From assembly GCA_018650165.1 (NCBI GenBank), contig JABIGM010000018.1, positions 2,552-66,551 on the forward strand: 64,000 bases of DNA, in the 5' to 3' direction. Of this stretch, positions 10,001-29,203 are shown piece after piece; position 1 is the first letter of the stretch; each line of letters starts with the position of its first letter. A program made the translations under genes and the position numbers. This stretch comes from Methanobacteriota archaeon (GTDB taxonomy: Archaea > Thermoplasmatota > Poseidoniia > Poseidoniales > Poseidoniaceae). The notes beneath the pieces are model-generated. The model was not told where the DNA came from. It ran no database searches and was given only the letters and a program-made list of their open reading frames with translations.

Positions 10001-10253
10001 CCAATTGGATATGACCGAAGTGACCTGGGCTTTCATCATACTTACAGTTGTCAGTTGGACAAAGAAGACCTGGCTCAATAACACCCATGTGAGGGTCCAT
10101 CAATCCTTGACGGTAAGCGTGACCATCGTCCTTGTAGGTATCTGCAGTCTTAACTTCAACAGATGACATCTTACGAATCTCTGTTGGGTCCATCAATCCA
10201 AAGCGGATGCTAGCGATTCTCTTTGGAATCATTGTTGTGCTATTTCGACTCAT
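7062..10253 (-). CDS. rpoA1: RNA polymerase subunit Rpo1N (A')
   Basis: [10 protein letters not shown] catalytic motif, [39 protein letters not shown]. Confidence 0.98.
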
Positions 10254-14496: not shown

Positions 14497-14545
14497 ATAA
14501 ATTCCCCCATAAGCCCGCCATACACCGGTCCTGCTTCTTGTCAGG

Positions 14546-14619
14546 CGGGCCTGACGGGGTTCGAACCCGCGACCGTCCGGTTAAAAGCCGGACGCTCTAC
14601 CTGACTAAGCTACAGGCCC
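14546..14619 (-). tRNA. tRNA-Lys (anticodon UUU), no intron, CCA not fully encoded
   Basis: Reverse complement GGGCCTGTAGCTTAGTCAGGTAGAGCGTCCGGCTTTTAACCGGACGGTCGCGGGTTCGAACCCCGTCAGGCCCG folds into a cloverleaf; anticodon stem TCCGG/CCGGA, loop CTTTTAA; GTTCGAA T-loop. Confidence 0.97.
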
Positions 14620-14658
14620 AAATGTATGTCTTGGGCTTTGTGGCCGACCTGCAAGTGG

Positions 14659-14672
14659 TTCTTAAAGCCTCC
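14659..14672 (-). promoter_or_regulatory. Putative TATA box (TTTAAG) for tRNA-Lys and possibly the rpo operon
   Basis: GGAGGCTTTAAGAA on the minus strand ~40 nt upstream of the tRNA 5' end. Confidence 0.5.
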
Positions 14673-14792
14673 GCCATCCATAATTACCATCTAAAGGCAA
14701 GACTCGTAGGGAATGCAAGTCCGACTCTTTACAGTATTGTGGTTAGAGCCAAGAGGCATAAAGGCTTCGGCACAGACGGAGGGGTGGGGCAC

Positions 14793-16145
14793 ATGGCGGA
14801 AAGGGAAGTATTTACTGCCGAAGATGCGGCATTAGAGGTTGGACGCCTTGAGCGAGCCCCCAGTACATCTTTTTGGTCACCGCGTGAGGGCTTCAACTTC
14901 AAATTAATCATACCCCCAACTGTTTATCCACCAAGAGAAGATACTAACCTTTTAGCAAAGAGAATCGTGGCATTAGGCCCAGGACGAGGTAGAACATTTC
15001 TTGAGATTGGAAGCGGTTCTGGCGCACTTTGCGTACTTGCATCTTCTATGGGATGGAAAGTGAGCGGGTGCGACATTAACCCCTTCGCCGTAGCCGCCAC
15101 TAGAGGCAATTTGGAGAACAATGGTTTTACAGGAGAAATTCGCGAAGGAGGGGTTGGCCCAGAACCATTTCCCTTTGAGAAATCATATGATTTGATAATT
15201 TGGAATTTACCATATATTGTGCCACAAGAAATCGAACAGGTTCTAGGGCCGATGGAAGAAGCTGCGCTAATCGATACTGATGACCAGGGGTTGGGTAATA
15301 GGTTTCTATGTAGCATCACCAGTAACCACTTACTCGCCCCGAAGGGTAGAGTTCTTGCATTAGGCAGAGAAAATTCAGTAGTTGATACAAAATATTTAGC
15401 ACACCGCGTTTGGGATGAAATTGAATTTGAAGATGGAGAAAGGTTGGAATTAACATGCTATTGGCGGCCATTCGAAGGAGCCACTAGCACATTCCTGGAA
15501 AGCACGGGTTCTACCAATGAAGATCTCTTTGCTAAAACAGGAATCGGCACCCACATTTCTACGAGTTGGCAAACGGCAGGCAGAGGGAGAAGAGGGCGGA
15601 CTTGGACCTCTATAGAAGGTTCTTATGCGGGGTCATGGATTGTCGCAGAAGGTTCGGAAATTAATCCCGGGCACCTACAATTATCCGGTGGCTTAGCTGT
15701 ACTAAAATCTCTAAATAAAAGTGAATTAAGATTGAAATGGCCAAATGACATATTAATCGGTAAAAGAAAGGTTTGTGGTGTTTTAGCAGAAGGGAGAACT
15801 TTCGAAGATGGAACACGAGTAGTGCTTGGTTTTGGAATTAATCTCAAATCAGGGGAACATAACGTTGATGTAGAAATTGCAACACTTGAGGAAATAATTA
15901 ATATCGAGCATAATGAATTTGATGGAAGGTTAAATTGTGAACTCGCATCCTTACTCGAATCTTTAGATGACATCCCCCCAATACGGTATTCGGAAATACG
16001 AAGTGAAGTATTGAAAGAGATGCGCCGTATGGGCAAACCAATGTTCAAGGGTGAAATTTATGATGATTTCAATTTGAATAATTCTGGTGAATTAATTCTT
16101 GGAACTAATATTGTGGATGATGGTGAAGAGATTTCTTGGAACTAA
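14793..16145 (+). CDS. Fusion of HemK/PrmC-like SAM methyltransferase and biotin-protein ligase (BirA catalytic domain)
   Basis: VYPPREDT, LEIGSGSG, DINP, WNLPY (MTase); STNED, QTAGRGRRGRTW, LKWPNDI, KVCGVL, GFGINL (BPL); start moved to ATG 14793 because the longer ORF overlaps the tRNA. Confidence 0.85.
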   Translation: MAEREVFTAEDAALEVGRLERAPSTSFWSPREGFNFKLIIPPTVYPPREDTNLLAKRIVALGPGRGRTFLEIGSGSGALCVLASSMGWKVSGCDINPFAVAATRGNLENNGFTGEIREGGVGPEPFPFEKSYDLIIWNLPYIVPQEIEQVLGPMEEAALIDTDDQGLGNRFLCSITSNHLLAPKGRVLALGRENSVVDTKYLAHRVWDEIEFEDGERLELTCYWRPFEGATSTFLESTGSTNEDLFAKTGIGTHISTSWQTAGRGRRGRTWTSIEGSYAGSWIVAEGSEINPGHLQLSGGLAVLKSLNKSELRLKWPNDILIGKRKVCGVLAEGRTFEDGTRVVLGFGINLKSGEHNVDVEIATLEEIINIEHNEFDGRLNCELASLLESLDDIPPIRYSEIRSEVLKEMRRMGKPMFKGEIYDDFNLNNSGELILGTNIVDDGEEISWN

Positions 16146-16982: not shown

Positions 16983-18269
16983 ATGTCCGATGAATCCGAA
17001 CCCCGATTTTCGCAAGCCGGAATTTTACAACTAATCAAAAATATGCTCTCACCACGTACTATTCCTCACATCATAATGATCGCACTGATTTCTATAACAT
17101 TGCTATTCTTAGTCAAATCACAGGAAGTATTTGTCGCAATGATGTTTATTTCATTGGCTATTTCTTATTCACTCATTGCAATTTTTGCAAATAAAGAAAT
17201 GGTCCAGAGCCTGACTATACTTCCAAAAGAGAGCGGGGATGCTGCCCTTATAGTTCGGTTTTTATTTAGTTTTCGAATAACAATTGTCCCATTGCTTCTT
17301 GCAACTGTGATAACAGGGTTGATGTGGACTATGCTTGGTGGACAGAGTAATACCTGGGTTGCTCCAATTTTAGCTTCATTATTCATTGTCTGGTCCATAG
17401 CACAAGCCGCATCATTTAGGACTGGAATGGTCGAGTGGTTAGCAAATGGTTTAGGTGATGCTAAACTTCACAGTTATCGCGAAAAACTTTCCACAGCCTC
17501 ACAAATTATTCTTGTCCAGAGTTTTGCATTTCTAATTATTTGGATTGGTCAAATGATTACTGAAGTAGAACAAATGTCATTTGGAGAAGCCCTATTGGGG
17601 GGATTGCTATTTTTAGCAATTAGTGCCTCTCTACAAGCCTTTACAATATGGTTAACCCGAGATGAAAGACAATCCGCTGGAAATGAAAAGGGGTTGGCTG
17701 GCTTTTCTTTCAAATGGATGACTGTTGCGCAACTATTCATCACATGGCACGCATTTAGCATCTATCGAAGGGCCATGATGGAACCATCTGAAACATCAAC
17801 ATTGGTTGAAGAAGGCATACTCATGGCGTTTACTGTAATTTTTGCTGTTTGGTCACTCACGACTTACACGGTAAGAGATGGTAAGAGACTGATATCTGAA
17901 AATTCGGCACTACCGCTAGGGATCTCATTTGGTTATGCCTATGCAGGTTCTGTAGCAATGCTCGTTGGAACATTTGAAAGTTTACGAGAAGTGATGATTT
18001 TTGGCCACGTGATATCAATTTGTGCAATGATGCTGCTGCTGCGTCCGACATTACGCACCAGTCGAATCTCAACCGACATACTCGACTATGCCAAAACTGT
18101 TGAAATCACTTCAAAAGAAAAGGTGGAGGATAGTGAAGATGAAGACAGTGATAAATCAGTGGAATCCAAAGAAACTTGGCAGGATGACAAGGATTTAGAT
18201 TGGGAAAAGGGCTCCGAAATCTCAGAGGATGTCGAATGGGGTTCTGATGATAAATCAGATGAGGCTTAA
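16983..18269 (+). CDS. Polytopic membrane protein with acidic C-terminal tail
   Basis: About 10 hydrophobic helices; D/E-rich tail. Confidence 0.75.
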   Translation: MSDESEPRFSQAGILQLIKNMLSPRTIPHIIMIALISITLLFLVKSQEVFVAMMFISLAISYSLIAIFANKEMVQSLTILPKESGDAALIVRFLFSFRITIVPLLLATVITGLMWTMLGGQSNTWVAPILASLFIVWSIAQAASFRTGMVEWLANGLGDAKLHSYREKLSTASQIILVQSFAFLIIWIGQMITEVEQMSFGEALLGGLLFLAISASLQAFTIWLTRDERQSAGNEKGLAGFSFKWMTVAQLFITWHAFSIYRRAMMEPSETSTLVEEGILMAFTVIFAVWSLTTYTVRDGKRLISENSALPLGISFGYAYAGSVAMLVGTFESLREVMIFGHVISICAMMLLLRPTLRTSRISTDILDYAKTVEITSKEKVEDSEDEDSDKSVESKETWQDDKDLDWEKGSEISEDVEWGSDDKSDEA

Positions 18270-19184
18270 TCCTGAAGTTTCATCTAGTCCAGAAACTACT
18301 GCGACCACACGTATCCTGCCTTGTAAGTCATCGCTTACTCGAGCACCTAGAATAACTTGGGCGTCCTCATCAAAGCGTGCAGTAAAAGCATCTGCAATTA
18401 GGCCAACTTGGCCTACGGTCATCCCAGGACCTCCTTCGATTTGTAGCAAACAAGCCTTTGCACCTTCCAACGAAAGGTTAGCGAGAGGAGCTCCCAATGC
18501 ATCTTCCAATAACGAGTTTGCATCATCTGGGTTTCCTTGCCCAACCATCAAAGTCGAGCCCCCCGCATGACCAACTATCGTCTTGAGATCCATCATGTCA
18601 AGGTTGATCAAGCCAAGTCGCATCAAAGTTCGAACGAGACCATCTACGAATTCCTCGACCCATGAAGCACCCAATCTCCAATCTATCCCGCGCTCTCGGG
18701 CTTGCCATGCCAAACGGTCAAGTTCTAAGCGTACACAGACATCTGAATTTGCCTCAAGTTTTGGTAAGCCTTCACGGCTAACTTTGACTCGTGTTTCTTG
18801 TGCTTCAAATGGAATTGCTGCGATGGATATCACAATCGCTCCAGACAACCTCGCCTGTCTGGCAAACTCCGGGCCAGCACCTGTACCGGTCCCGCCACCT
18901 AAGCCTGTAAGTAAAATCACCATTTCCACACCCTCCAAAAGGGTACGTGTCACGCCAGCAGCTTGACGCATTCGCTGTTCACCGAGTGGTGGTAATGCCG
19001 CACAACCGGCTGAGTCGAGATCCTTTCCCAAACGGATAACATGAGCATTGGGGGAGTCAAACGAATTTTCATCTGCGTCGATGAGAACTAAATCGATATC
19101 ATGACCGGTCTTTGAGTGGGCCCGTTGAGCCCATGCACAACCCAAACCACCGATGCCGGCGATGAGAATCTGTGCTCCATCCAT
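18255..19184 (-). CDS. ftsZ: FtsZ/tubulin family GTPase (divergent FtsZ paralogue)
   Basis: GIGGLG, GLGGGTGTG tubulin signature, PFEAQ, LINLDMMD T7 loop, VVAVVSGL end. Confidence 0.8.
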   Translation of the reverse strand: MDGAQILIAGIGGLGCAWAQRAHSKTGHDIDLVLIDADENSFDSPNAHVIRLGKDLDSAGCAALPPLGEQRMRQAAGVTRTLLEGVEMVILLTGLGGGTGTGAGPEFARQARLSGAIVISIAAIPFEAQETRVKVSREGLPKLEANSDVCVRLELDRLAWQARERGIDWRLGASWVEEFVDGLVRTLMRLGLINLDMMDLKTIVGHAGGSTLMVGQGNPDDANSLLEDALGAPLANLSLEGAKACLLQIEGGPGMTVGQVGLIADAFTARFDEDAQVILGARVSDDLQGRIRVVAVVSGLDETSGLSLI

Positions 19185-19209: not shown

Positions 19210-19515
19210 TCAATCTCTGCCCACATATCGTAGGTAACGTCGACGAGCATCTCGTGCCCAAGAGTTGTCAGGTTCGAGTTGCAACACTTTGTTATACAGT
19301 TCAACAGCCTTTTCGAAATCGGAAAAATGTCGACCGTATAGGTGCGCTAAATTGTTCAAAACCGGGATGCAGTCTTCTTCTTCATCCAGCATAGCTAGAA
19401 GCATATCTTCGGCCCGTCCAAGATTATTTCTCAGCATTTCTGCTTCAGCCTCATCTAATTTCTCCAATTGTTCATTCGAGAGGTCATATGTATTCTCGAA
19501 TGGGTGGTCTGACAT
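19210..19515 (-). CDS. Tetratricopeptide repeat protein
   Basis: LNNLAHLY...FEKAVELYNKVLQLEPDNSWA TPR pattern; GAGGA SD before ATG 19515. Confidence 0.85.
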   Translation of the reverse strand: MSDHPFENTYDLSNEQLEKLDEAEAEMLRNNLGRAEDMLLAMLDEEEDCIPVLNNLAHLYGRHFSDFEKAVELYNKVLQLEPDNSWARDARRRYLRYVGRD

Positions 19516-19669
19516 GTACAGTCCTCGGTGCGTTTTCACATATGTTTTGTCATTATATGATTAGTACAAAAAAACTGCCGAATTGTAACACTGCAAGACC
19601 CCCTATCGTAGATAGGGCACGAACGATTATAGGCGCAATGCAAGTCGCCCAAATCAGTTGGGATAGGCT

Positions 19670-20458
19670 ATGGGCATGTCACGGGTTTTCATCCGAAGTT
19701 TGCTACCCCTAATCCTAGTGTCATTAATGCTTTTACCGGGGCTTAGTGAAGCCTACCCAGATGGTATTGGCGGTGAACAAAGCAATGCTGGTGAAACTAT
19801 TGATGATGTTGCCAAAGAAGGTTGTCTTTGCCATGGTGGCGAAGCAAGTAATTCCGTAATGGTAATTCTTGTCGACGTACCGCACTCTTGGACTCCAGGA
19901 GATGCCTACACAATGAGACTAGAAATCATCGGCGGACCCGATTCAGACAAGGGTGGATTTTCTGCCCGAGTTAGCGCTGGTGAGTTATCTGGTGATGGAC
20001 AATCGTGGGAGGAGGACTCGATGTCAAGGACACATTCGTCCTCTGCAACCAGAATTTTCGAACTTATTTGGACACCTCCTGCCGAGGGAACAGGCACAGT
20101 AGATTTCTGGATCTCGGCTAATGCCGTGAATGGTGCAGATGGACCAGTGGGAGATAATTGGAATCAACTGGTTTTCAATTTGGTCGAAGTTGCAGAAGAT
20201 GATGGTCGTGGCACACGCAGTTTGATTGCAGGTAGCGGGACTCCTGAAGCACCAGCTGCCGATGCCGGAGCAGTTGACTTACATTCGATGGGAGCGCCTT
20301 TCCGTGCGCACTGGCTAGGTTTACTTGGATTTGGAGCAGTTATCTGTGTAATTATATTCTGTGGGTTCCTCCTTAGATACGGATTTTCGACATCCTACAA
20401 GGGACGTAGTAACGTTTTGAGACTGCGATACAAGATTAACAGGAGAGGTGACCAGTGA
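19670..20458 (+). CDS. Secreted, C-terminally anchored Reeler/choice-of-anchor V-like protein with GCLCHG motif
   Basis: Signal peptide, AYPDG, GCLCHG, GGFS, WTPP..GTGTVDFWISANAVNG..G..GD.W, C-terminal TM. Confidence 0.75.
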   Translation: MGMSRVFIRSLLPLILVSLMLLPGLSEAYPDGIGGEQSNAGETIDDVAKEGCLCHGGEASNSVMVILVDVPHSWTPGDAYTMRLEIIGGPDSDKGGFSARVSAGELSGDGQSWEEDSMSRTHSSSATRIFELIWTPPAEGTGTVDFWISANAVNGADGPVGDNWNQLVFNLVEVAEDDGRGTRSLIAGSGTPEAPAADAGAVDLHSMGAPFRAHWLGLLGFGAVICVIIFCGFLLRYGFSTSYKGRSNVLRLRYKINRRGDQ

Positions 20459-20910
20459 TGGCCAAGGATACAATCACCCGTCTTCTGGAGCAGGTCGCAT
20501 CAGGCGATGTTAGTATCAAGGATGCTCGAAAGGCACTAGAAGATGCAACGCTAACAGAAGACCAAATGGATTCAGCAATCAATCACGGGGTATTCAACCC
20601 TGCTGAACCAGGAACTATTATTTCAGCATCTCTTGCTCCATCGGGCTCATCTGCGCTGGCTTTATTCTTCTTCGGATGGGGCATATTCTGGACAATTTAT
20701 TGGTTTGGAACTATGCTTTACGGGTTCCTAAATGGCTCATCATGGGACCAACAACAACTCTCATACCATCTGGCAATGGGAATTTCAACTCTTATTATGA
20801 TGGGGATAGTCTACATGAAGTGGGTTCTTCCAGACAAAATTATTGTTAAGCACAGGCGAAATAAGTACATCCCTGAGCATCCAAAGGATTGGAGAGAGTA
20901 TAATTGGTGA
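20455..20910 (+). CDS. Two-TM membrane protein in the Rieske/cyt b operon
   Basis: N-terminal 'LLEQVASGDVSIKDA' helix pair, two TM helices; GGAGAGGTGA SD; overlaps neighbours. Confidence 0.75.
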   Translation: MMAKDTITRLLEQVASGDVSIKDARKALEDATLTEDQMDSAINHGVFNPAEPGTIISASLAPSGSSALALFFFGWGIFWTIYWFGTMLYGFLNGSSWDQQQLSYHLAMGISTLIMMGIVYMKWVLPDKIIVKHRRNKYIPEHPKDWREYNW

Positions 20911-21764
20911 GTTCTATGGATGATATGAAGTTGAGACCAGCACCAACTCCCGAGAGTGCTTTATTGTCGTCAATACAAACGACTTCGATTAATCGAAGAC
21001 AATTCTTGCGATATGGATTCAATGCTGCTGGAGGAGTTCTTGCTGCAACACTTGGAGCTCTTGGATTCGCTTCAATCTTGATGCCGCCTGGCGAAGGTGG
21101 CGGAGGAGATTCGTCTGTCCTATTCTGGGCCAAAGGTCGTGAAGAAGAAGCATGGTATGGTGCAAAACATTTGCAACCAATGCTAAAGTCGGATTTCGTG
21201 ACTGAATCTGCTAATTCTAATATTGGAATGGCTGGAGCGCAAGGTGTTTGGAATGGTTTACCAGTTGTGGTCAATTATGTCCCACACGCACAAAACTCAG
21301 ACTCTCCTATCGCTGACAACTCACCACGATTCCAAGAAATGGCTGGCTATGATATCGGCAAGAACTACGTTGGCCATGCTACTGAATATCTACTTGGCAA
21401 TCCTGATGTCTTTGACCCTAGTGGCAATTTAGTTATGATCTTCTCTCGTTGTACTCACTTATGCTGCATACCAGGATGGCAACTTGTTTCAAACTCATTT
21501 ACTGCAGATAATTGGACCCCTGGAGGGGCAGATGATGGTGGTAGCAAACTGTTCTGTATATGCCATTCAAGTCGTTTCGACCCTACTGCGATTGAAGTAA
21601 ACCGAAACATAAACCGTTCAAATGGTGCTACATTCGACTACCTCGGAATACGTCGCGCAGGTGGCCCTGCCCCAGTAGGGTTACCGATAATTCCGATAAT
21701 AATGAATGGCGACTCCATCGGGGCGTCAAGTGAATACACGGGCTGGCTGACCTATTGCGATTGA
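20904..21764 (+). CDS. petC: Rieske [2Fe-2S] subunit of a Rieske/cytochrome b complex
   Basis: Tat motif NRRQFL plus TM anchor; CTHLCC and CICHSSRFD boxes; GPAP.GLP C-terminal motif. Confidence 0.93.
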   Translation: MVSSMDDMKLRPAPTPESALLSSIQTTSINRRQFLRYGFNAAGGVLAATLGALGFASILMPPGEGGGGDSSVLFWAKGREEEAWYGAKHLQPMLKSDFVTESANSNIGMAGAQGVWNGLPVVVNYVPHAQNSDSPIADNSPRFQEMAGYDIGKNYVGHATEYLLGNPDVFDPSGNLVMIFSRCTHLCCIPGWQLVSNSFTADNWTPGGADDGGSKLFCICHSSRFDPTAIEVNRNINRSNGATFDYLGIRRAGGPAPVGLPIIPIIMNGDSIGASSEYTGWLTYCD

Positions 21765-21765
21765 G

Positions 21766-22641
21766 GTGATTATCATGAATACAATATTTTGGGTACTCTG
21801 GTTCTTTATCGCTTTCATCACTGTGTTGATCGCATTCACACTTCGTAAAGAAAACGAAGACATTCCTCGTCGTGAAATTCTTCGGGCTGTAGAAACCAGT
21901 GGTAAAATGGGCTTTGCTGAAAGAACATTCCTTTGGGTGTTCTCATTCCTCGATACAAGATTCAGAATTCAAGATTACTGGAATATGAGTAAGGGCGCCT
22001 ACTACAATATGCACAGACAAATGCCGCTTACACATGCAGAGAAGTACAAACTCCGAATCATTTGGTATTGGTACCCATTGTACTGTCTTGGTGGCATATC
22101 ATTCCTTTCGTTCATTATTCTTGTAATCACAGGTACTGTTCTTGGTATCTATTATGTCCCAGGTGGAGAAGGTGACCCTTCCCCTGCGTATGCGAGTATG
22201 GAATTCATCATGACTCAATTACCATTTGGATATATTATCAGAGCTGTTCACCATTGGGGAACTCACTTCATGGTAGCATCTGTATTCCTCCATATGTGTC
22301 GTGTTTACTTTACAGGCGCATACCGCAACCCTCGTGAATTGAATTGGTTAATTGGTGTTGCACTCATGGCTCTGACAATTGTATTCGGATATTCGGGCTA
22401 TCTATTGCCATGGGATAGCCTTGCATTTGGCGCTGCCACTATTGGGATTAACATGGCTAACTCAACGCCGTTAATTGGAAAATATGTTTCGACATTACTG
22501 TTCTCCGGCTCATCGCTGTCTCACAGGGCTGTGACTCGAATGTATTTCATTCACGTATTCATATTGCCAGTTATTGTTACAACTTTGATCATCATACATT
22601 TGTTCATAGTTTGGGTTCAAGGAATTGCGGAGCCGCATTGA
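21766..22641 (+). CDS. petB: Cytochrome b6-type (split) cytochrome b
   Basis: YCLGG, heme-ligand His pairs RAVHHW...FLHMCR and FIHV...IIHL, PRELNW, GYSGYLLPWD, C-terminal QGIAEP. Confidence 0.95.
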   Translation: MIIMNTIFWVLWFFIAFITVLIAFTLRKENEDIPRREILRAVETSGKMGFAERTFLWVFSFLDTRFRIQDYWNMSKGAYYNMHRQMPLTHAEKYKLRIIWYWYPLYCLGGISFLSFIILVITGTVLGIYYVPGGEGDPSPAYASMEFIMTQLPFGYIIRAVHHWGTHFMVASVFLHMCRVYFTGAYRNPRELNWLIGVALMALTIVFGYSGYLLPWDSLAFGAATIGINMANSTPLIGKYVSTLLFSGSSLSHRAVTRMYFIHVFILPVIVTTLIIIHLFIVWVQGIAEPH

Positions 22642-22650
22642 TATGGAGGT

Positions 22651-25461
22651 ATGAATATGGGTCTAATTGAGAATCTTGGTGCTGTTGCTTCATCCTATAT
22701 GGATGAGAAAGAAAATCTTCAGACCACTGATGAAAGGCGTGTACGCACTATGGCAGGACATGGTTTCTGGCCGCATGAAGTGCTACGTGACACACTTATT
22801 TTCGGATTTTTAGCTGCAGTATTGTTGTTTTATGCTTGGCTCATCCCACCACCACTACACAGTGCAGCAGACCCCTTTGCCCAGGCTGGTTTCGTATTCC
22901 CTGACTGGTATGTTCTATTCTCATATGGTTACCTAAGGTGGGGTGAATATCTACCTCAGTTCTCTGTCCCTCTTGGGCCAGTGGGTGAATTCTTCGGCCA
23001 GCCATCTTTCCCATGGAACGCTGCATGGTGGGGTGCTTTCCTTACAGGAATCCCAGTTGGAATTCTAGCACTTCCACCTTTCCTAGGTGGACGTGAAAAG
23101 AGACCTGTAGAAGACCCCTGGTTTGCGAGTGCAGGTGTAGTTTATCTTGCACATATTTGGTTTATCTCAGTATTCTCAATCAATATCTTCCTAGAATTAT
23201 ATGGGAAGAACCGGAGTGATTTCTGTAAATTAGACAGTCACGGAGATTTGGTCTGTGGCGCACGAGCACCATGGATTGCTGATTTATTCAATGCCATACC
23301 ATGGATCATGACAGGTATTCTGTTATGGATTGTCATCTACTTTGTAGCAAAATGGTTGTTCAATAATGCATGGGGTGCGAAATTTACTCCCGCCCATGGA
23401 AAGAAATTAATTGTAGGCGCCTTCATTGTTGCAACCGCAGCAAGTGTAGTCTCTTACCCTGTTTATGACAATGGTTTCTGGGATGCAAAAGGATTACTCA
23501 CAATAGAAGACTATGGCGAATTAGAGGACATGCGTTCTCAACCTCTAGATGTTCATGTTCACGAGCACAATGAGCACATGACTGACCAAGGATTCGAAGG
23601 TGATATAGTTCCAGCATCCGCCTGGATGCAATGGAACATATACCAACCCGCAAGATATTATTTAATTGATTTTGCCGATAGTAATGGGCATCAAAACCTA
23701 GATACTGGGGTCAATGGAGCAAGCGGACTCGAGACCTATTCAGGTGATGAAACTGCAGGTGAGTCAGGTTACTTCAACATCTCAAATAATCACTGGCCAG
23801 AAAATGTTGAATTTACAACTGTACCTGTCGATGCAACCTGTGCAACAAGAGCCAGTGAAGTCATTATCGATGGAGGAGTTCCGACCTCGGCAATGATGCA
23901 ATCAAGCCTCATAATTACTGACCATAAAACCGGTGAAGTTGTGATTGACACAGACTGTTCTACTGGAGAAACTGGTGTTGAGTTAGGCGCTGGCCTTTAC
24001 CACTATGAATTCCGTGCTTACTCTACAGATGCCCTTGCTGCTAACGAAAGCGTCACTGTTGAAACTCAATTCACAATCAAAGCTTACCAACCACTGCTAT
24101 TGTATGGTGAAGACGCAGGCAATGGACTTGCAGGACATGCAGTTAATTTGTCGAATTCACTGGACATCGAATTAGAAGGAGACGAGATGGGCGTTGTTGT
24201 TAATCCAACATACCATGCCAATCCAAAGGCTCTAGATGCTAAATTGACCTATGCTATGTTTATCCCATGTTTGACAGCAGGCGCTGTTGTATTCATCCTG
24301 CTACGTAATATGGCAAGAGGATATGAATTTGAAATGAACAAGTGTTACGGCTGTGATCTTTGTGACGATGCATGTCCTGTGCGTCTGTTTAATGCTGGTG
24401 ACAAGTTGAACATCATTTACAATTCATGGAACAATGAAGATGATGGTGTGCCTATGTATTCCTGTCTCACTTGTACCGCATGTACAAATGCGTGCCCACA
24501 ACTAGTCGACTATGACTCATATGTTGACATCCGTCGCTCACTCATCGTCGGTGGACCTGCTGCTGAAATTCCTCACACTGTGCTACAAGCAGTTCTAGCT
24601 GCTGAGGCCGAAGAAGAGAGTGATGCAGACTTTGTACCTGTCAAAGAATATCCTATCGATTCAAACATTGGCTATTACCCAGGTTGTGTCGACTACCTCG
24701 ACCAAGAAATGGTATTTAGCCACCTCAATGAGGGTGATATGAATCTTGGAGATTCTACCAATTCAGCATTCACCCTGTTTGAAGAAATGGGTGCTGAAGT
24801 GTCATACCTTGGACGCGACTTCCTCAAGTGCTGTGGCCATGACCAAAAATGGCAGGGATTGGATGAAGTGTTTGACAAGTTAAAGTCATACAACCAGAAG
24901 AAGATTGAGGCATCTGGAATCGACACATTGGTTTCATCCTGTGCTGAATGTTTCCGAACCTTTGCACGTGACTATGAATTAGAAGGTGTCAAAGTAATGC
25001 ATACTACAGAATTCCTTATCGAAAATGGCTTCGATATGGAGATGAAGGTTGAAGACGAATTGACAGTAACCTATCACGACCCTTGTCGCTTAGGTCGCCA
25101 GATGGGAATCTATGACGAGCCTCGTGACTTGGTCAACAGTGTTGAAGGTGTCAAACTGGTTGAGATGGAGCACAGTGGCGAAGATGCAATGTGCTGTGGA
25201 GTCTCTAGCATGATGTCTTGTAATGAAAATGCACGCTCCTTGAGAGTTTCAAGGATGGAAGAAATTCGTAACACTGGAGCAGATATGATGATTACATCAT
25301 GTCCAAAGTGTGTGTCTCACTTCGAATGTCTGAAGTTTGAAGATGATGAGAAGTATGACATCGAGATCCTAGATGTTGTCTCCTTCCTTGCACGCCAAGT
25401 AGAAGCAAAGAAGCAGGTCCATTCTGAGCCTGTATCTACGCATGTACCTGCAGAAGCTTAA
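22651..25461 (+). CDS. Cytochrome b6 subunit IV fused to an extracellular domain and an HdrD/GlpC-like 2x[4Fe-4S] + 2xCCG domain
   Basis: FWP, ADP, PDWY (PEWY) of subunit IV; CYGCDLCDDACP and CLTCTACTNACP; YPGC/CCG/CAEC and HDPC/CCG/CPKC. Confidence 0.9.
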   Translation: MNMGLIENLGAVASSYMDEKENLQTTDERRVRTMAGHGFWPHEVLRDTLIFGFLAAVLLFYAWLIPPPLHSAADPFAQAGFVFPDWYVLFSYGYLRWGEYLPQFSVPLGPVGEFFGQPSFPWNAAWWGAFLTGIPVGILALPPFLGGREKRPVEDPWFASAGVVYLAHIWFISVFSINIFLELYGKNRSDFCKLDSHGDLVCGARAPWIADLFNAIPWIMTGILLWIVIYFVAKWLFNNAWGAKFTPAHGKKLIVGAFIVATAASVVSYPVYDNGFWDAKGLLTIEDYGELEDMRSQPLDVHVHEHNEHMTDQGFEGDIVPASAWMQWNIYQPARYYLIDFADSNGHQNLDTGVNGASGLETYSGDETAGESGYFNISNNHWPENVEFTTVPVDATCATRASEVIIDGGVPTSAMMQSSLIITDHKTGEVVIDTDCSTGETGVELGAGLYHYEFRAYSTDALAANESVTVETQFTIKAYQPLLLYGEDAGNGLAGHAVNLSNSLDIELEGDEMGVVVNPTYHANPKALDAKLTYAMFIPCLTAGAVVFILLRNMARGYEFEMNKCYGCDLCDDACPVRLFNAGDKLNIIYNSWNNEDDGVPMYSCLTCTACTNACPQLVDYDSYVDIRRSLIVGGPAAEIPHTVLQAVLAAEAEEESDADFVPVKEYPIDSNIGYYPGCVDYLDQEMVFSHLNEGDMNLGDSTNSAFTLFEEMGAEVSYLGRDFLKCCGHDQKWQGLDEVFDKLKSYNQKKIEASGIDTLVSSCAECFRTFARDYELEGVKVMHTTEFLIENGFDMEMKVEDELTVTYHDPCRLGRQMGIYDEPRDLVNSVEGVKLVEMEHSGEDAMCCGVSSMMSCNENARSLRVSRMEEIRNTGADMMITSCPKCVSHFECLKFEDDEKYDIEILDVVSFLARQVEAKKQVHSEPVSTHVPAEA

Positions 25462-25732: not shown

Positions 25733-26014
25733 CTAAGATTGCTCTTTGTCGTCTTCCATCCCTCGAATCTCATAGTTAGATGGGAATAGAGCCACGATAA
25801 CTCCTGCAATTAAGAAGCCGAGACCCAAAGCAAATCTCTGCTCTACGAAAAGAAATTCTAGAGCGAAAACCACTAACAATAATCCGCCAATATTTGAAAT
25901 CCAAACTAGTGCTTTGAAAGTTGAAAGTGAGACTCCTGTGGTATTGGCTCCTCTGGAGGGGCCGAATTCTCCACCGAATCTTTGTGCTCCGTCATGGTCT
26001 GGTTGGTCACTCAT
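25733..26014 (-). CDS. Small two-TM membrane protein
   Basis: AGGTGA SD; two hydrophobic helices. Confidence 0.7.
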   Translation of the reverse strand: MSDQPDHDGAQRFGGEFGPSRGANTTGVSLSTFKALVWISNIGGLLLVVFALEFLFVEQRFALGLGFLIAGVIVALFPSNYEIRGMEDDKEQS

Positions 26015-26018
26015 ATTC

Positions 26019-26351
26019 TCACCTATCTATCATTGTAATCGCATCGGTTGGACACGCTAGAACACAAAGCCTGCACCCAGTACAGGCATCTCGAATAATT
26101 TTGGCTTTGCGATTACTAGGTACTTCGAGTAAAGGTGAGGCCATTTCTTTGAAGTATAATTCAATTGCATCATCATCACAAACTATTGTGCACTGATCAC
26201 AACCAATGCACAATTTCTCAGTAACCCAAGCAACGGTCCCTTCGCCACCTTTTGTCATAGCACGTCGCTCACCCTTTTGCCTAGCAAGAGAGATCGCTAT
26301 CCGTTCAGCCTCCACTGCACGGCGCTTTGACAGGTCCTCTGGAGATGTCAT
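26019..26351 (-). CDS. 2x[4Fe-4S] ferredoxin
   Basis: CIGCDQCTIVC and CTGCRLCVLACP; GGAGGTGA SD. Confidence 0.9.
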   Translation of the reverse strand: MTSPEDLSKRRAVEAERIAISLARQKGERRAMTKGGEGTVAWVTEKLCIGCDQCTIVCDDDAIELYFKEMASPLLEVPSNRKAKIIRDACTGCRLCVLACPTDAITMIDR

Positions 26352-27008: not shown

Positions 27009-27995
27009 TTAAGATTGTAATTCGATTGACACGCCTTCTGAGCGCATTACTTCAATCACTAATTCGATTACATCATTCGGCAAATCTTCCGGTGCGTGTA
27101 CACCCGACGGAAGCATTTCAGGTCGGTCAACCCAGGCAATAGCACAACATGCAGTTACGAGTCCTGTCGTTCTTGCCATACTAGAATCTCCATCTGAACC
27201 ACTGTCCTCGACAACCCATCTGCGCTCATTATCTCCCGAGGTAATATGTACTTCCATCCAAGTAAACTCTCCGCGCAGTGGGTCGATTTTCCAAGCATCA
27301 ACTAACTCTTCGGGATTAAGTTTAGTCGCCTGATACTTCTGAATATGCCCTGGCCATCTGACAGTATACTCGCCCATCTTTGTTGCAGGAATGTTTAGCA
27401 ACGAGCGTAGCCCATCAGTCAGGAATGCATCCATCTCCCGACCGTTAGCATCTATTGTATGCAGTTCAGTCATAGCAGGAACCTCGCAAACCTCACCGTT
27501 TTCGATGATTCTGGCTTCACGAGTATATTCTGCAATTACATCATGGGGGGAAAATGGTGCCATATACGACCAGTGGTTATCTGGTTCACTGGGATTGCCA
27601 CCTACTTTGATACTCACTTTGTCTAATGTCCCAAATTCACGGTACGCCTGTGAGACGAGCATATTGGAGAGACCTGGTGCGATTCCAACATCCCACAGAA
27701 TCTTGCTTTGAACATTTTCTAATCGATCTGGAGTTATTTCGCTAAAGGAAAGGTCTACTATTTTTTGTCCCGAATTTTTTAGCATACTGGTTGCCTTGTG
27801 GCCCAGTGACCCCGGCAGCATATTGATGATTAAATCCGCAGAACTGTGGTCCGCTTCCAAGGCGCTACCTAAATGGAAAGTTGCATCGGTTTCTCTCTCG
27901 ACAATATCGAATAAATGCACTTCGAAATTTGCATCCACCAAACGTCGTGTGACAAATAAGCCAACCAGGCCCCCTCCTAGGCAGTGTACCCGCAT
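27009..27995 (-). CDS. Saccharopine dehydrogenase / lysine 6-dehydrogenase family oxidoreductase
   Basis: LGGGLVG Rossmann, DVGIAPGLSN, AFLTDGLRSL, YTVRWPGH, SMARTTG. Confidence 0.85.
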   Translation of the reverse strand: MRVHCLGGGLVGLFVTRRLVDANFEVHLFDIVERETDATFHLGSALEADHSSADLIINMLPGSLGHKATSMLKNSGQKIVDLSFSEITPDRLENVQSKILWDVGIAPGLSNMLVSQAYREFGTLDKVSIKVGGNPSEPDNHWSYMAPFSPHDVIAEYTREARIIENGEVCEVPAMTELHTIDANGREMDAFLTDGLRSLLNIPATKMGEYTVRWPGHIQKYQATKLNPEELVDAWKIDPLRGEFTWMEVHITSGDNERRWVVEDSGSDGDSSMARTTGLVTACCAIAWVDRPEMLPSGVHAPEDLPNDVIELVIEVMRSEGVSIELQS

Positions 27996-29203
27996 TAATT
28001 CTTCACCATCTGCTTTTGAGATTCCGCACCCATTGCTAGCATTGACAACTCAGCAACCAGAGCATGCCATCCATGTGCATGCTCACCATATGTGCCACCT
28101 ACTTCACTGTAAGGGAGAAATATCGCAGATGGGGAATTCAAATTTTCAATCTCACCTTTCTTTGGATTTATTCGATAAAACCATGATGCTGCTTCACCAT
28201 CTACCAAGTAGACAACTGGTTCAACAGAATAGCCTTCACTCGACTTTAGAGTGGTGGGTACGCCTTCCTGTATCAGGAAGTTTTCAACATCGACCCCTCC
28301 TTTTGAGTACATTAGTCGTTTGAATTTTCGATTTGAAAGATTCAGAAGTTGGTTACCACTCGTTACTGCCATAATCCCTAAGCCATAGGTGCCCCTATCG
28401 TTTTTGACAAAAGCAACTGGCTCTCTTTCAATGCCCAATGCTTGATATCTAACAGCGATTTTAGCCAAGAACTCATCTATTTCTACTGCAAGGGCTTGGC
28501 GGCAAGTTTCCTTTTCCAAACATTTGTTTTCACTTACAAACCAGTCAGTTAGAAGGTGCCACGGATCAATATCCAATACCTCTGCAATCTCGTTGACATA
28601 TTCTTGTAAACAAGCATAGTGTTCGGACTTTCTTCTTCTCTGCCAACCCATATGAGGCGGTGGTGAAACTTGGTGGGCAGCAATTCCCGGAACAACACCT
28701 TCAGTTAAATCATTATTCAGCATTATAAGGTCAGGGCTATTTCCATCAATCATTAATGAATCGTTGACGAGTTTGACTTGGTCTAATACCAGTGGTCCTG
28801 TGATTCCATCAATAGAACCGTGCCCACCCAACTCTGGTGAACCGACAGTGCAGCGGAAACCTCCATCAATTAATAGACGCTTGATTGTTGAAACATTTTC
28901 AGCATAACCGGGATTCCTCGTGTGGGATTCTGGATATAGATGGACCCATTTACATTCTGGCTGCTGTCGAATAATATGTTCGCGCAGTAATATAGAAAGT
29001 CGTTCTTCATCCTCGCTTGACACATTATTGAATCCTGCAGGAAAATGGTTTGCATCGACTACTGCTATTTTCCACCCACAGTCACGAATGTCGACGCTAC
29101 CATAGATTGGAATTGGTACCTGTGAACGCTTTTTAGCCATCCACTCAGTGATCAATTCACGATTGGCTTCAAGATGTTTGGTGAGGTCATGTACTGCGGT
29201 CAT
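27995..29203 (-). CDS. gshA: Glutamate--cysteine ligase, GshA ATP-grasp type
   Basis: YGSVDIRDCGWKIAVVDANHFPAGFNN, PESHTRN, LNNDL, KNDRGTYGLGIM, IQEGVPT, ENLNS. Confidence 0.85.
   Translation of the reverse strand: MTAVHDLTKHLEANRELITEWMAKKRSQVPIPIYGSVDIRDCGWKIAVVDANHFPAGFNNVSSEDEERLSILLREHIIRQQPECKWVHLYPESHTRNPGYAENVSTIKRLLIDGGFRCTVGSPELGGHGSIDGITGPLVLDQVKLVNDSLMIDGNSPDLIMLNNDLTEGVVPGIAAHQVSPPPHMGWQRRRKSEHYACLQEYVNEIAEVLDIDPWHLLTDWFVSENKCLEKETCRQALAVEIDEFLAKIAVRYQALGIEREPVAFVKNDRGTYGLGIMAVTSGNQLLNLSNRKFKRLMYSKGGVDVENFLIQEGVPTTLKSSEGYSVEPVVYLVDGEAASWFYRINPKKGEIENLNSPSAIFLPYSEVGGTYGEHAHGWHALVAELSMLAMGAESQKQMVKN

What the first reader, a model, noticed from the sequence alone, without database searches (positions are those of the whole stretch)
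19670..25461. Rieske/cyt b6 complex whose subunit IV is fused to a cytoplasmic HdrD/GlpC-like Fe-S/CCG enzyme
Seen: five tightly coupled genes (CxCH surface protein, 2-TM protein, Tat Rieske, split cyt b6, 936-aa fusion). The fusion starts as subunit IV (FWP, ADP, PDWY). It continues with two extra TM helices, a ~260-aa soluble domain, one more TM, two CxxCxxCxxxCP motifs (from 24343) and two complete CCG domains. Established: this Fe-S + CCG set is the architecture of HdrD and GlpC/GlcF, and in anammox planctomycetes some Rieske/cyt b complexes carry extra NAD(P) oxidoreductase modules. Inference: counting helices from the outside-facing PEWY loop puts the HdrD-like module in the cytoplasm, near the Qi site. 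The complex could then couple quinol oxidation to thiol/disulfide or organic-acid redox chemistry (a modified Q-cycle or electron bifurcation). I do not know of a characterised complex with this architecture.
Basis: partly seen in the sequence, partly recalled or inferred. Interest (0 to 1): 0.9.

Follow-up and report, generated by a model that had tools for sequence, protein, structure and literature searches.

The report
Complex III fused to HdrD module
Marine Group II archaea carry a respiratory Rieske/cytochrome b6 complex whose subunit IV is fused to a cytoplasmic iron-sulfur (HdrD-type) module, which probably connects a small ferredoxin directly to the quinone cycle.

Summary
Window 19670-25461 holds five tightly coupled + strand genes: a Reeler-like surface protein with an invariant GCxCH, a 2-TM protein, a Tat Rieske protein, a cytochrome b6 with four His ligands and the heme-ci Cys, and a 936-aa fusion. 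The fusion reads subunit IV (PDWY), two TMs, an acidic 260-aa outside domain, one TM, two [4Fe-4S] motifs and two complete CCG domains.

The fusion is real. It was found in 151 of 151 sampled Poseidoniales genomes. Charge distribution puts the Fe-S/CCG module in the cytoplasm.

New findings:
- Shorter 4-TM versions occur in other archaea, always directly after cyt b6. There they are usually followed by HdrA-like and MvhD genes.
- MGII lacks HdrA and MvhD. It keeps a 110-aa 2x[4Fe-4S] ferredoxin, the "orphan RnfB" of the literature, beside the cluster.
- Complex prediction docks this ferredoxin on the CCG domains (0.79 against 0.01 for controls).
- A separate true EtfD orthologue argues against an ETF role.

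Best reading: an n-side electron wire between ferredoxin and the Qi/heme ci site. The direction of flow and any disulfide chemistry are unresolved. A 2022 paper noted hdrD-like and rnfB-like genes beside complex III in Angelarchaeales. I rate this a new variant of a known kind.

The parts
19670..20458 (+). g1: signal peptide, Reeler-like beta-sandwich with invariant G51-C52-x-C54-H55, C-terminal TM anchor and a conserved basic cytoplasmic tail. Candidate outer-face subunit; cofactor unknown.
   Evidence: NCBIfam choice_anch_V 1.6e-23. Nearest Atlas cluster 'putative Reelin domain-containing protein', score 0.96. AF2 pLDDT 74.9. Best Foldseek hit is the F-spondin reeler domain, 1.6e-4. Invariant columns in 32 sequences. 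Gene order conserved in 5 of 5 loci with enough flank.
20455..20910 (+). g2: 151-aa protein with two TM helices. Small subunit conserved with this kind of complex.
   Evidence: Weak DUF7318 hit, 0.0052, below cut-off. tblastn relatives lie upstream of Rieske/cyt b6 in 5 of 11 non-MGII loci and in 5 of 5 MGII loci with enough flank.
20904..21764 (+). g3: Tat-exported Rieske [2Fe-2S] protein (RRQFLR; CTHLCC and CICHSS boxes).
   Evidence: NCBIfam TIGR01416 7.6e-10 and TAT signal 0.015, both below cut-off. Motifs read. No PDB hit by phmmer.
21766..22641 (+). g4: cytochrome b6 (4-TM core) with one extra N-terminal TM helix. It has four His heme ligands and the YCLGG Cys that binds heme ci/cn.
   Evidence: PF00033 2.9e-41. 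Alignment to 1vf5_A, 1.5e-42, residues 105-290 against 33-214, with the Cys and His columns conserved.
22651..23196 (+). g5 residues 1-182: subunit IV part (helices E, F, G; PDWY 84-87).
   Evidence: Profile hits to cyt b C-terminal halves and to b6f subunit IV. PF00032 over cut-off in 7 of 9 shorter relatives. Invariant P84 D85 W86 Y87.
23197..23463 (+). g5 residues 183-271: MGII-specific insertion. It comprises an outside loop with invariant C192 and C202, TM4, a basic inside loop and TM5.
   Evidence: Absent from the seven 4-TM relatives in alignment A1. Charge and Cys counts.
23464..24243 (+). g5 residues 272-531: acidic, beta-rich extracytoplasmic domain of unknown function, specific to MGII.
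   Evidence: Mean 42 D+E against 11 K+R. AF2 block pLDDT about 86-97 over residues 281-530. No Pfam hit. No usable Atlas hit.
24244..24300 (+). g5 residues 532-550: last TM helix. It aligns with the fourth TM of the short fusions, and 14 residues follow before the first cluster Cys.
24316..24525 (+). g5 residues 556-625: two cubane [4Fe-4S] motifs (C565, C568, C571, C575; C605, C608, C611, C615).
   Evidence: Fer4_8, Fer4_9 and Fer4_10. Of the eight Cys, seven are invariant and C565 is nearly invariant (90% or more) in 83 sequences.
24673..24960 (+). g5 CCG domain 1 (C679, C727, C728, C764, C767). Predicted docking surface for the ferredoxin.
   Evidence: PF02754. Cys conservation. Interface residues 639-723.
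25066..25329 (+). g5 CCG domain 2 (C812, C848, C849, C884, C887).
   Evidence: PF02754 best stretch 806-891..
26019..26351 (-). 110-aa 2x[4Fe-4S] ferredoxin with a conserved N-terminal helix (the 'orphan RnfB'). Proposed redox partner of the HdrD module.
   Evidence: Fer4_21 1.7e-13. rnfB subfamily 48.9 bits, below the 68.7 cut-off. JGI name RnfB. Present in 147 of 151 genomes. Synteny. Complex prediction 0.79 against 0.01. It is the only own-genome match to the ferredoxin part of an HdrA-like protein.
25733..26014 (-). 93-aa protein with two hydrophobic helices that travels with the ferredoxin.
   Evidence: No Pfam family. Adjacent to the ferredoxin in 7 of 8 MGII loci examined.

Best explanation
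This is the Marine Group II (Poseidoniales) form of an archaeal Rieske/cytochrome b6 complex. Its subunit IV is fused to a cytoplasmic HdrD-type module: two cubane [4Fe-4S] clusters plus two CCG-domain clusters. Shown or well supported: the Rieske protein and cyt b6 (hemes bL, bH and ci) form an ordinary Qo/Qi core; the fused module sits on the cytoplasmic (n) side, 14 residues after the last TM helix. Inferred: its four clusters form an electron wire between the n-side hemes/Qi site and a dedicated 110-aa 2x[4Fe-4S] ferredoxin, which docks on the CCG domains. The most likely direction is from ferredoxin reduced by 2-oxoacid:ferredoxin oxidoreductase, through the wire, to quinone at Qi. Complex III would then be an entry point for low-potential electrons, much as ferredoxin is thought to feed heme cn in b6f cyclic flow. 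The MGII form derives from ancestors in which HdrA-like flavoprotein and MvhD genes follow the fusion. MGII kept only a ferredoxin-sized piece and gained an outside domain. My confidence in the architecture and topology is about 0.9, in the ferredoxin partner about 0.6, and in the direction about 0.4. The figure given is for the whole statement.
For: Architecture: (see observation check).

Reality and conservation: the fusion was found in 151 of 151 genomes and 22 of 22 genera. Identical pieces of all five genes occur in contigs of marine RNA libraries; X1 covers 25 of 30 bins.

Topology: K+R density alternates 0.165, 0.018, 0.188, 0.110, 0.208, 0.043, 0.214 from the N-terminus to the stretch after TM6. 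The 260-aa domain carries 42 acidic residues. C192 and C202 are invariant in an outside loop.

Wider family: 11 of 11 non-MGII loci with a full-length 4-TM fusion have cyt b6 directly upstream. In 10 of 11, HdrA-like genes follow. In 8 of 11, MvhD follows; two of the other three loci end first. All 28 fusion HdrD modules form one clade (SH-aLRT 99), with MGII nested inside.

Ferredoxin partner: an orthologue was found in 147 of 151 genomes. Comparing the coordinates, it lies directly downstream on the same strand in 67 of 67 genomes of families f3 and f2. In f1 it lies within 3.7 kb in 58 of 65 genomes. It is the only own-genome match to the ferredoxin part of an HdrA-like protein.

Complex prediction: score 0.79, best of 3 controls 0.01. 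The mark was reached by 58 of 80 solved complexes and 2 of 110 mismatched pairs. The runs agree in at least 80% of contacts and the partner pLDDT is at least 77. The interface comprises the CCG domains and the ferredoxin's N-terminal helix and cluster-1 loop.

HdrD-type modules can act as pure wires, as in EtfD (PMC13083937, sections 8 and 9 read).

The own genome has a 2-oxoacid:ferredoxin oxidoreductase.

The same idea was voiced for Angelarchaeales (PMC9038741, passages read).
Against: No cofactor, activity or structure has been measured.

The complex prediction may pass by likeness to solved HdrA-HdrBC complexes. It used my own alignments, so its calibration holds only roughly.

MGII genomes are broadly syntenic here: the FtsZ-like and TPR genes upstream are conserved too. 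Adjacency therefore carries limited weight, and kin are not independent. In 7 genomes of genus g2 the ferredoxin lies 14-16 kb away.

Both CCG motifs keep all five Cys, like catalytic HdrB/HdrD and unlike EtfD. This fits a disulfide-reducing site as well as a wire.

I could not measure the distance from the first cluster to heme bH/ci.

Nothing shows the direction of flow.

The 11-subunit-type complex I could be the ferredoxin oxidiser instead. NuoF was not found in a genome that is 80% complete.
Confidence: 0.5

Rival explanations
1. The module is a true disulfide reductase, working like HdrDE or DsrMK. Quinol-derived electrons, either directly or as the low-potential branch of the Qo bifurcation, pass from the b hemes through the clusters to reduce a cytoplasmic disulfide at the CCG site. 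A candidate substrate is the disulfide of a low-molecular-weight thiol such as gamma-glutamylcysteine.
For: Both CCG motifs are complete (C679, C727, C728, C764, C767 and C812, C848, C849, C884, C887), as in catalytic Hdr. EtfD, a pure wire, has lost one Cys. The nearest soluble relatives are HdrD genes in hdrD-hdrC-hdrB-hdrA clusters of Methanoperedens, at 44-50% identity. A GshA-type glutamate-cysteine ligase (PF08886, 7.7e-95) lies about 2.5 kb downstream in the window. It is also near the cluster in 3 of the 5 other MGII loci with enough flank.
Against: No NCBIfam Hdr, Dsr or Tfr equivalog reaches its cut-off; the best is TfrB at 120 bits against 385. The predicted ferredoxin docking covers the CCG domains. 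gshA is on the opposite strand, is absent from the 11 non-MGII loci, and sits in a region of general synteny. No substrate is known for aerobic MGII.
Confidence: 0.2
2. Reverse direction. The complex uses the Qo bifurcation, the membrane potential, or both to push electrons from quinol through heme bH/ci and the wire onto ferredoxin. This would make low-potential reductant, as proposed for NAD(P)H formation by anammox Rieske/cyt b complexes.
For: The architecture and partner evidence are the same as for the best explanation. Relatives carry HdrA-like and MvhD genes, which are typical of bifurcating or confurcating systems. The anammox precedent is described in the abstract of PMC12954380 (listing only).
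Against: MGII are described as aerobic heterotrophs (PMC6336850, passages read). They already make reduced ferredoxin through a 2-oxoacid oxidoreductase. No obvious sink needing extra reduced ferredoxin was looked for here.
Confidence: 0.15
3. The module is an EtfD-like acceptor for electron-transferring flavoprotein. It would feed beta-oxidation electrons into the quinone pool at complex III.
For: The best PDB match by sequence profile and by fold is M. smegmatis EtfD (9ojn: 1.7e-39; 5.9e-15). ETF alpha was found in 147 of 151 genomes. ETF-QO/FixX exceeded its cut-off in only 12 of 151.
Against: MGII has a separate protein that matches EtfD far better and over both the membrane and soluble parts: P0271, 678 aa, 6.4e-98. 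It has the EtfD-like C-S in place of CC in CCG1. The own genome holds a truncated copy at a contig end.
Confidence: 0.05

Closest known systems
Cytochrome b6f and Firmicute-type b6c complexes (split cyt b6 + subunit IV, heme ci/cn)
   Same: A 4-TM cyt b6 with four His ligands and the heme-ci Cys. A separate subunit IV with a PEWY-type motif (PDWY). A Rieske protein. The proposed n-side electron entry from ferredoxin resembles cyclic flow to heme cn (recalled knowledge).
   Different: No cytochrome f/c1 gene; a Reeler-like protein stands first instead. Subunit IV continues into three more TM helices, an outside domain and an HdrD-type module. Cyt b6 has an extra N-terminal TM helix.
HdrDE, DsrMK and Hme-type 'membrane cytochrome b + cytoplasmic HdrD-like subunit' enzymes
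   Same: A cytoplasmic module with two [4Fe-4S] motifs and two complete CCG domains, attached to a membrane di-heme cytochrome b that talks to the quinone or phenazine pool.
   Different: Those use NarI-type cytochromes b without a Rieske protein or Q cycle (recalled). Here the partner is a bc/b6f-type cytochrome b and the link is a gene fusion to subunit IV. No equivalog model reaches its cut-off.
Mycobacterial EtfD (PDB 9ojn; PMC13083937)
   Same: The best structural and sequence match in the PDB. It shows that an HdrD-type cluster chain can act as a wire from a cytoplasmic protein donor to a membrane heme b and quinone.
   Different: EtfD has its own 5-TM heme b domain and a linear [3Fe-4S] cluster, because CCG1 lacks one Cys. 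The fusion keeps both CC pairs. MGII has a separate EtfD orthologue.
Complex III locus of Ca. Angelarchaeales (Diamond et al. 2022, PMC9038741)
   Same: [quoted passage not shown] The authors suggest that complex III may be an entry point for reduced ferredoxin.
   Different: It is one sentence about one genome. The passages I read say nothing of a fusion to subunit IV, of MGII, of HdrA/MvhD-linked relatives or of topology. The supplements could not be opened.
Anammox Rieske/cyt b complexes with NAD(P) oxidoreductase and multiheme modules
   Same: Rieske/cyt b cores extended by extra redox modules on the n side, with proposed non-standard bifurcation.
   Different: The modules differ (FAD/NAD(P) and c hemes), the organisms are bacteria, and there is no CCG or HdrD part (known to me from the abstract and from recall).
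HdrABC-MvhD flavin-based bifurcating complexes and QmoABC
   Same: Relatives of the fusion are followed by HdrA-like and MvhD genes. The HdrD part equals HdrB plus HdrC.
   Different: Neither MvhD nor the flavin part of HdrA was found in the window's genome, which is 80% complete. No Rieske/cyt b link is described for those systems (recalled).

Membership tests
b6f-type Rieske/cytochrome b complex | Four-helix cyt b6 with two His pairs for hemes bL and bH | tested here: met
   Alignment to 1vf5_A, 1.5e-42; the His columns are conserved. PF00033 2.9e-41.
b6f-type Rieske/cytochrome b complex | CxGG Cys for covalent heme ci/cn | tested here: met
   YCLGG aligns with the FYCLGG of the b6f cyt b6. 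That this Cys is Cys35 is recalled.
b6f-type Rieske/cytochrome b complex | Separate subunit IV with a PEWY-type Qo motif | tested here: met
   PDWY 84-87 is invariant in 26 sequences. Profile hits to subunit IV at 3.5e-7 and to cyt b C-terminal halves at 7.1e-9. The single sequence alone gives only E 0.11.
b6f-type Rieske/cytochrome b complex | Rieske [2Fe-2S] protein with CxH and CxxH boxes, exported by Tat | tested here: met
   RRQFLR, CTHLCC and CICHSS are read. The models score below cut-off (TIGR01416 39 bits against 97), and there is no PDB hit. This is a divergent member.
b6f-type Rieske/cytochrome b complex | c-type cytochrome (f or c1) as acceptor of the Rieske cluster | tested here: not met
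   None of the five proteins has a CxxCH motif. g1 has GCxCH and a Reeler-like fold. The acceptor is unknown.
HdrD (subunit of HdrDE heterodisulfide reductase) | Two [4Fe-4S] ferredoxin motifs followed by two CCG domains with five Cys each | tested here: met
HdrD (subunit of HdrDE heterodisulfide reductase) | Scores as an HdrD-family equivalog | tested here: not met
   The best NCBIfam hit is TfrB, 120 bits against a cut-off of 385. DsrK, GlpC, GlcF and HdrB score far lower.
HdrD (subunit of HdrDE heterodisulfide reductase) | Works with a NarI-type cytochrome b (HdrE) and reduces CoM-S-S-CoB | not testable with these tools
   The operon partner is a b6-type cytochrome b. The substrate cannot be read from sequence.
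EtfD (ETF:menaquinone oxidoreductase) | Own N-terminal 5-TM heme b domain, and a CCG1 lacking the second Cys (linear 3Fe-4S) | tested here: not met
   The fusion has a subunit IV membrane part and CC in both CCG domains. The true orthologue is P0271.
HdrABC/MvhD bifurcating module | HdrA flavoprotein and MvhD encoded with the HdrB/C-like part | tested here: not met
   Met in relatives: HdrA-like in 10 of 11 loci and MvhD in 8 of 11. In the own genome there is no FlpD match, and only the 110-aa ferredoxin matches HdrA. The genome is 80% complete.
RnfB | Scores over the rnfB model cut-off and occurs with RnfACDEG | tested here: not met
   48.9 bits against a cut-off of 68.7. Tully 2019 reports that RnfACDEG is missing in MGII (passage read). 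I did not search for them myself.

The most novel reading that the evidence does not exclude
One of the most abundant archaeal groups of the surface ocean runs a complex III that also acts as a ferredoxin:quinone oxidoreductase, or in reverse as a quinol-driven ferredoxin reductase, through a fused HdrD wire ending at heme ci. Its relatives in Thermoplasmata, Bathyarchaeia and Geothermarchaeales join the two known electron-bifurcating machines in one membrane assembly: the quinone-based Q cycle and the flavin-based HdrA module.
Probability: 0.35. Interest if true: 0.85.

Novelty: new variant of a known kind. Interest (0 to 1): 0.72.

Why it matters
MGII papers describe an "MGII-specific complex III" and an orphan RnfB without connecting them (PMC6336850). 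This work links the two and makes the link testable. It bears on how aerobic archaea that oxidise 2-oxoacids with ferredoxin return those electrons to the respiratory chain. It provides a natural case of an Fe-S wire attached at the n side of a b6-type cytochrome, which is relevant to the long debate on what heme ci/cn is for. The HdrA/MvhD-linked relatives would be a new setting for flavin-based bifurcation with quinone, through a Q-cycle enzyme, as a partner. The gene is universal in a globally abundant group, so it affects models of marine carbon remineralisation energetics.

Tried and rejected
ETF hypothesis. EtfD was the top PDB match, and ETF is present without ETF-QO in most MGII genomes. 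I rejected it after finding a separate, much better EtfD orthologue.

Methanoperedens loci (L014-L081). I asked whether these Rieske-bearing ANME archaea carry the fusion. The one locus whose genes I read, L032, holds a soluble HdrD in an mcrD-hdrD-hdrC-hdrB-hdrA context. The other 67 loci match only the HdrD part of the query (roughly residues 110-543).

Outside domain 272-531. There was no Pfam family and no usable Atlas hit. The only weak fold hits were GOLD/Ig-like sandwiches. Its function stays unknown.

g1 as a c-type cytochrome. It has no CxxCH. The Reeler-like fold hits are weak (TM 0.58). Its cofactor is unresolved.

Rieske protein against PDB by phmmer: no hit.

gshA neighbourhood as evidence for thiol chemistry. 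I kept it only as a weak hint, because the whole region is syntenic in MGII.

RNA-library contigs. They show that the sequence is present in metatranscriptome libraries of four studies. They are contigs, so transcription, operon structure and expression level are not shown. Bins without cover mean nothing. One contig joint skipping 79 nt at 21163-21243 in one run was not followed.

Heme to Fe-S distance. It could not be measured because model coordinates are not exposed.

The tree is the quick tree; the careful search did not finish in 300 s. It is midpoint-rooted. MGII rows were thinned to 13 of 49. P0183 and P0249 were skipped because they have no CCG part.

Paper searches. None described a subunit IV-HdrD fusion. 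The library lacks most subscription journals, and supplements were closed. The figures and supplements of Diamond 2022 and Tully 2019 may show more than I could see.

Full report
**What is there.** One search lists five + strand ORFs with overlapping or nearly abutting ends: 19670-20458, 20455-20910, 20904-21764, 21766-22641 and 22651-25461. The window is contig C16 of a 1.75-Mb genome that is 80% complete. Homologues carry Poseidoniales or Poseidoniaceae names.

- Gene 4 is a cytochrome b6 (PF00033, 2.9e-41). Its residues 105-290 align with residues 33-214 of the b6f cyt b6 in 1vf5_A (1.5e-42). The four His columns and the YCLGG Cys that carries heme ci/cn are kept (residue roles are recalled). 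About 100 residues precede that aligned core (canonical b6 has 32), and they include one extra TM helix.
- Gene 3 is a divergent Rieske protein. It has RRQFLR, CTHLCC and CICHSS. The models score below cut-off, and phmmer found no PDB hit.
- Gene 5 (P0001, 936 aa) has six hydrophobic helices, PDWY at 84-87, two CxxCxxCxxxCP motifs from C565 and C605, and two CCG domains with five Cys each.

**Is the N-terminus really subunit IV?** Pfam does not see it on this protein. Single-sequence phmmer gives E 0.11 to b6f subunit IV. A profile of 26 family members matches cyt b C-terminal halves (7.1e-9) and subunit IV (3.5e-7) over profile positions 27-151. Nine shorter relatives from the representative search all hit PF00032 at E of 0.01 or better, seven of them over the cut-off. 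P84, D85, W86 and Y87 are invariant. I take the identity as established.

**Is the fusion real?**
- Of the 120 best homologues listed, 115 are 908-969 aa and cover at least 98% of the query at 60-100% identity. The other five are 680-736-aa pieces.
- In a sample of 151 genomes of the order, 151 have it, across 22 of 22 genera. Open frames are about 930-970 aa wherever the contig allows.
- Pieces identical to all five genes occur in contigs of marine metatranscriptome libraries from four studies. These show presence in RNA libraries, not proven transcription.

**Topology.** Subunit IV starts on the n side (recalled from b6f structures). K+R density over 19 MGII sequences alternates as follows:

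| Segment | K+R density | Note |
|---|---|---|
| N-terminus | 0.165 | |
| E-F loop | 0.018 | |
| F-G loop | 0.188 | |
| G-TM4 loop | 0.110 | C192 and C202 invariant |
| TM4-TM5 loop | 0.208 | no acidic residue |
| 260-aa domain | 0.043 | 42 acidic residues |
| After TM6 | 0.214 | |

Only 14 conserved residues separate the last helix from the first cluster Cys. The AF2 model is confident (pLDDT 84.9, pTM 0.69), but I cannot read its coordinates.

**A wider family.** The representative search and a scan of one genome per species found 4-TM versions of 543-789 aa. They lack TM4, TM5 and the outside domain.
- Eleven loci with full-length versions come from Thermoplasmata MAGs, a Geothermarchaeales MAG, a Bathyarchaeia MAG and unclassified archaea.
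- In 11 of 11, cyt b6 lies directly upstream.
- With a Thermoplasmata Rieske query, a Rieske gene is seen in 10 of 11.
- In L007, cyt b6 is fused to an N-terminal cupredoxin. In L013 it is fused to an Ig-like domain.
- Downstream, 10 of 11 loci have HdrA-like genes and 8 of 11 have MvhD; two of the other three end before that point. NCBIfam reads these as pieces of HdrA2, below cut-off.
- In a phylum sample, a subunit IV-like match was found in 72 of 201 genomes. Of the 36 outside Poseidoniales, 13 lie in frames over 480 aa and 23 in frames of 241-395 aa. These are stop-to-stop frames, not gene calls.
- A quick tree places all 28 fusion HdrD modules in one clade (SH-aLRT 99), next to soluble Methanoperedens HdrD. 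MGII is sister to the L013/P0126 type and nested among HdrA/MvhD-linked forms (for limits see Tried and rejected).

**The MGII partner.** The own genome shows no MvhD. The only match to an HdrA-like protein is a 110-aa 2x[4Fe-4S] ferredoxin at window 26019-26351 on the minus strand, which matches the ferredoxin part.
- JGI names its relatives RnfB. It is most likely the orphan RnfB noted by Tully 2019, a link I infer and did not test.
- An orthologue is present in 147 of 151 genomes.
- I compared the coordinates by eye. In 67 of 67 genomes of families f3 and f2 it lies directly downstream of the fusion on the same strand. In f1 it lies within 3.7 kb in 58 of 65 genomes, mostly inverted as in the window. 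In 7 genomes of genus g2 it is 14-16 kb away.
- A 93-aa two-helix protein travels with it.
- Complex prediction of residues 551-936 with the ferredoxin gave 0.79, 0.77 and 0.79, against a best control of 0.01. The mark was reached by 58 of 80 solved complexes and 2 of 110 mismatched pairs. The runs agree in at least 80% of contacts and the partner pLDDT is at least 77.
- The interface comprises the CCG domains (639-723, 857-862, 893-897) and the ferredoxin's N-terminal helix and cluster-1 loop.
- The pass may owe something to solved HdrA-HdrBC complexes, and my own alignments were used.

**Rivals.**
- *ETF acceptor.* EtfD is the best PDB match. ETF alpha was found in 147 of 151 genomes, while ETF-QO/FixX exceeded its cut-off in only 12 of 151. 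However, MGII has a separate 678-aa protein that matches EtfD at 6.4e-98 over both parts and shares its C-S/C-T substitution in CCG1 (EtfD details from PMC13083937, sections 8 and 9). The ETF role is therefore taken.
- *Disulfide reductase.* The complete CCG motifs, the HdrD kinship and a nearby gshA keep this reading alive, but nothing tests it.
- *Reverse flow onto ferredoxin.* This cannot be excluded.

**Prior knowledge.**
- Tully 2019 notes cyt b plus Rieske without a canonical bc1, and the orphan RnfB (passages read).
- Diamond 2022 notes an hdrD-like and an rnfB-like gene beside complex III in one Angelarchaeales genome, and suggests ferredoxin entry there (passages read).
- Neither paper, in what I could read, describes the fusion to subunit IV, its universality in MGII, the topology or the HdrA/MvhD-linked relatives.
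- Ten searches found nothing further.

**Verdict.** The mechanism I commit to is an n-side Fe-S wire between a dedicated ferredoxin and the Qi/heme ci site, most likely feeding ferredoxin electrons into the quinone pool. Its steps from partner binding onward are inferred, not shown.

Noticed in passing
L007:5092-6942 and L013:30-1892: In relatives, cytochrome b6 carries an N-terminal extracytoplasmic domain fused through one extra TM helix. L007 has a plastocyanin-type cupredoxin (PF00127, 2.5e-19) and L013 an Ig-like Big_5 domain. MGII cyt b6 keeps only the extra helix, which may be a remnant.
   Followed up: partly
window 27995-29203 (-): A GshA-type glutamate-cysteine ligase (PF08886, 7.7e-95) lies near the cluster. 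It is also beside it in L097, L098 and L099. MGII may therefore make gamma-glutamylcysteine as a thiol.
   Followed up: partly
G003:C1 (L093 1477-3513, -) and own genome C41 start (L090 3-803): MGII has a 678-aa EtfD orthologue (5 TM, Fer4, 2 CCG; 6.4e-98 to PDB 9ojn). Most MGII genomes lack ETF-QO/FixX, so this is the likely ETF:quinone link of the group.
   Followed up: yes
window 18255-19184 (-) and 19210-19539 (-): A short FtsZ/tubulin-family protein (309 aa) and a 109-aa TPR protein lie directly upstream. Both are conserved in this position in 5 of 5 MGII loci with enough flank.
   Followed up: no
window 866-4186 (-): A 1106-aa ORF has no Pfam family at E 1e-5. It lies next to the RNA polymerase subunit genes at 5476-13861.
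   Followed up: no
P0183 (336 aa), P0249 (445 aa); phylum sample G176, G309: Some relatives are subunit IV fused to the two-[4Fe-4S] part only, with no CCG domains. The sister order of the class shows frames of 395-493 aa, which may be such forms.
   Followed up: no
window 21163-21243: One contig of one RNA-library run (X1) skips 79 nt inside the Rieske gene. It is probably a strain variant or an assembly effect.
   Followed up: no
window 14538-16145 (+): A 535-aa ORF combines a methyltransferase domain with a biotin/lipoate protein ligase domain.
   Followed up: no
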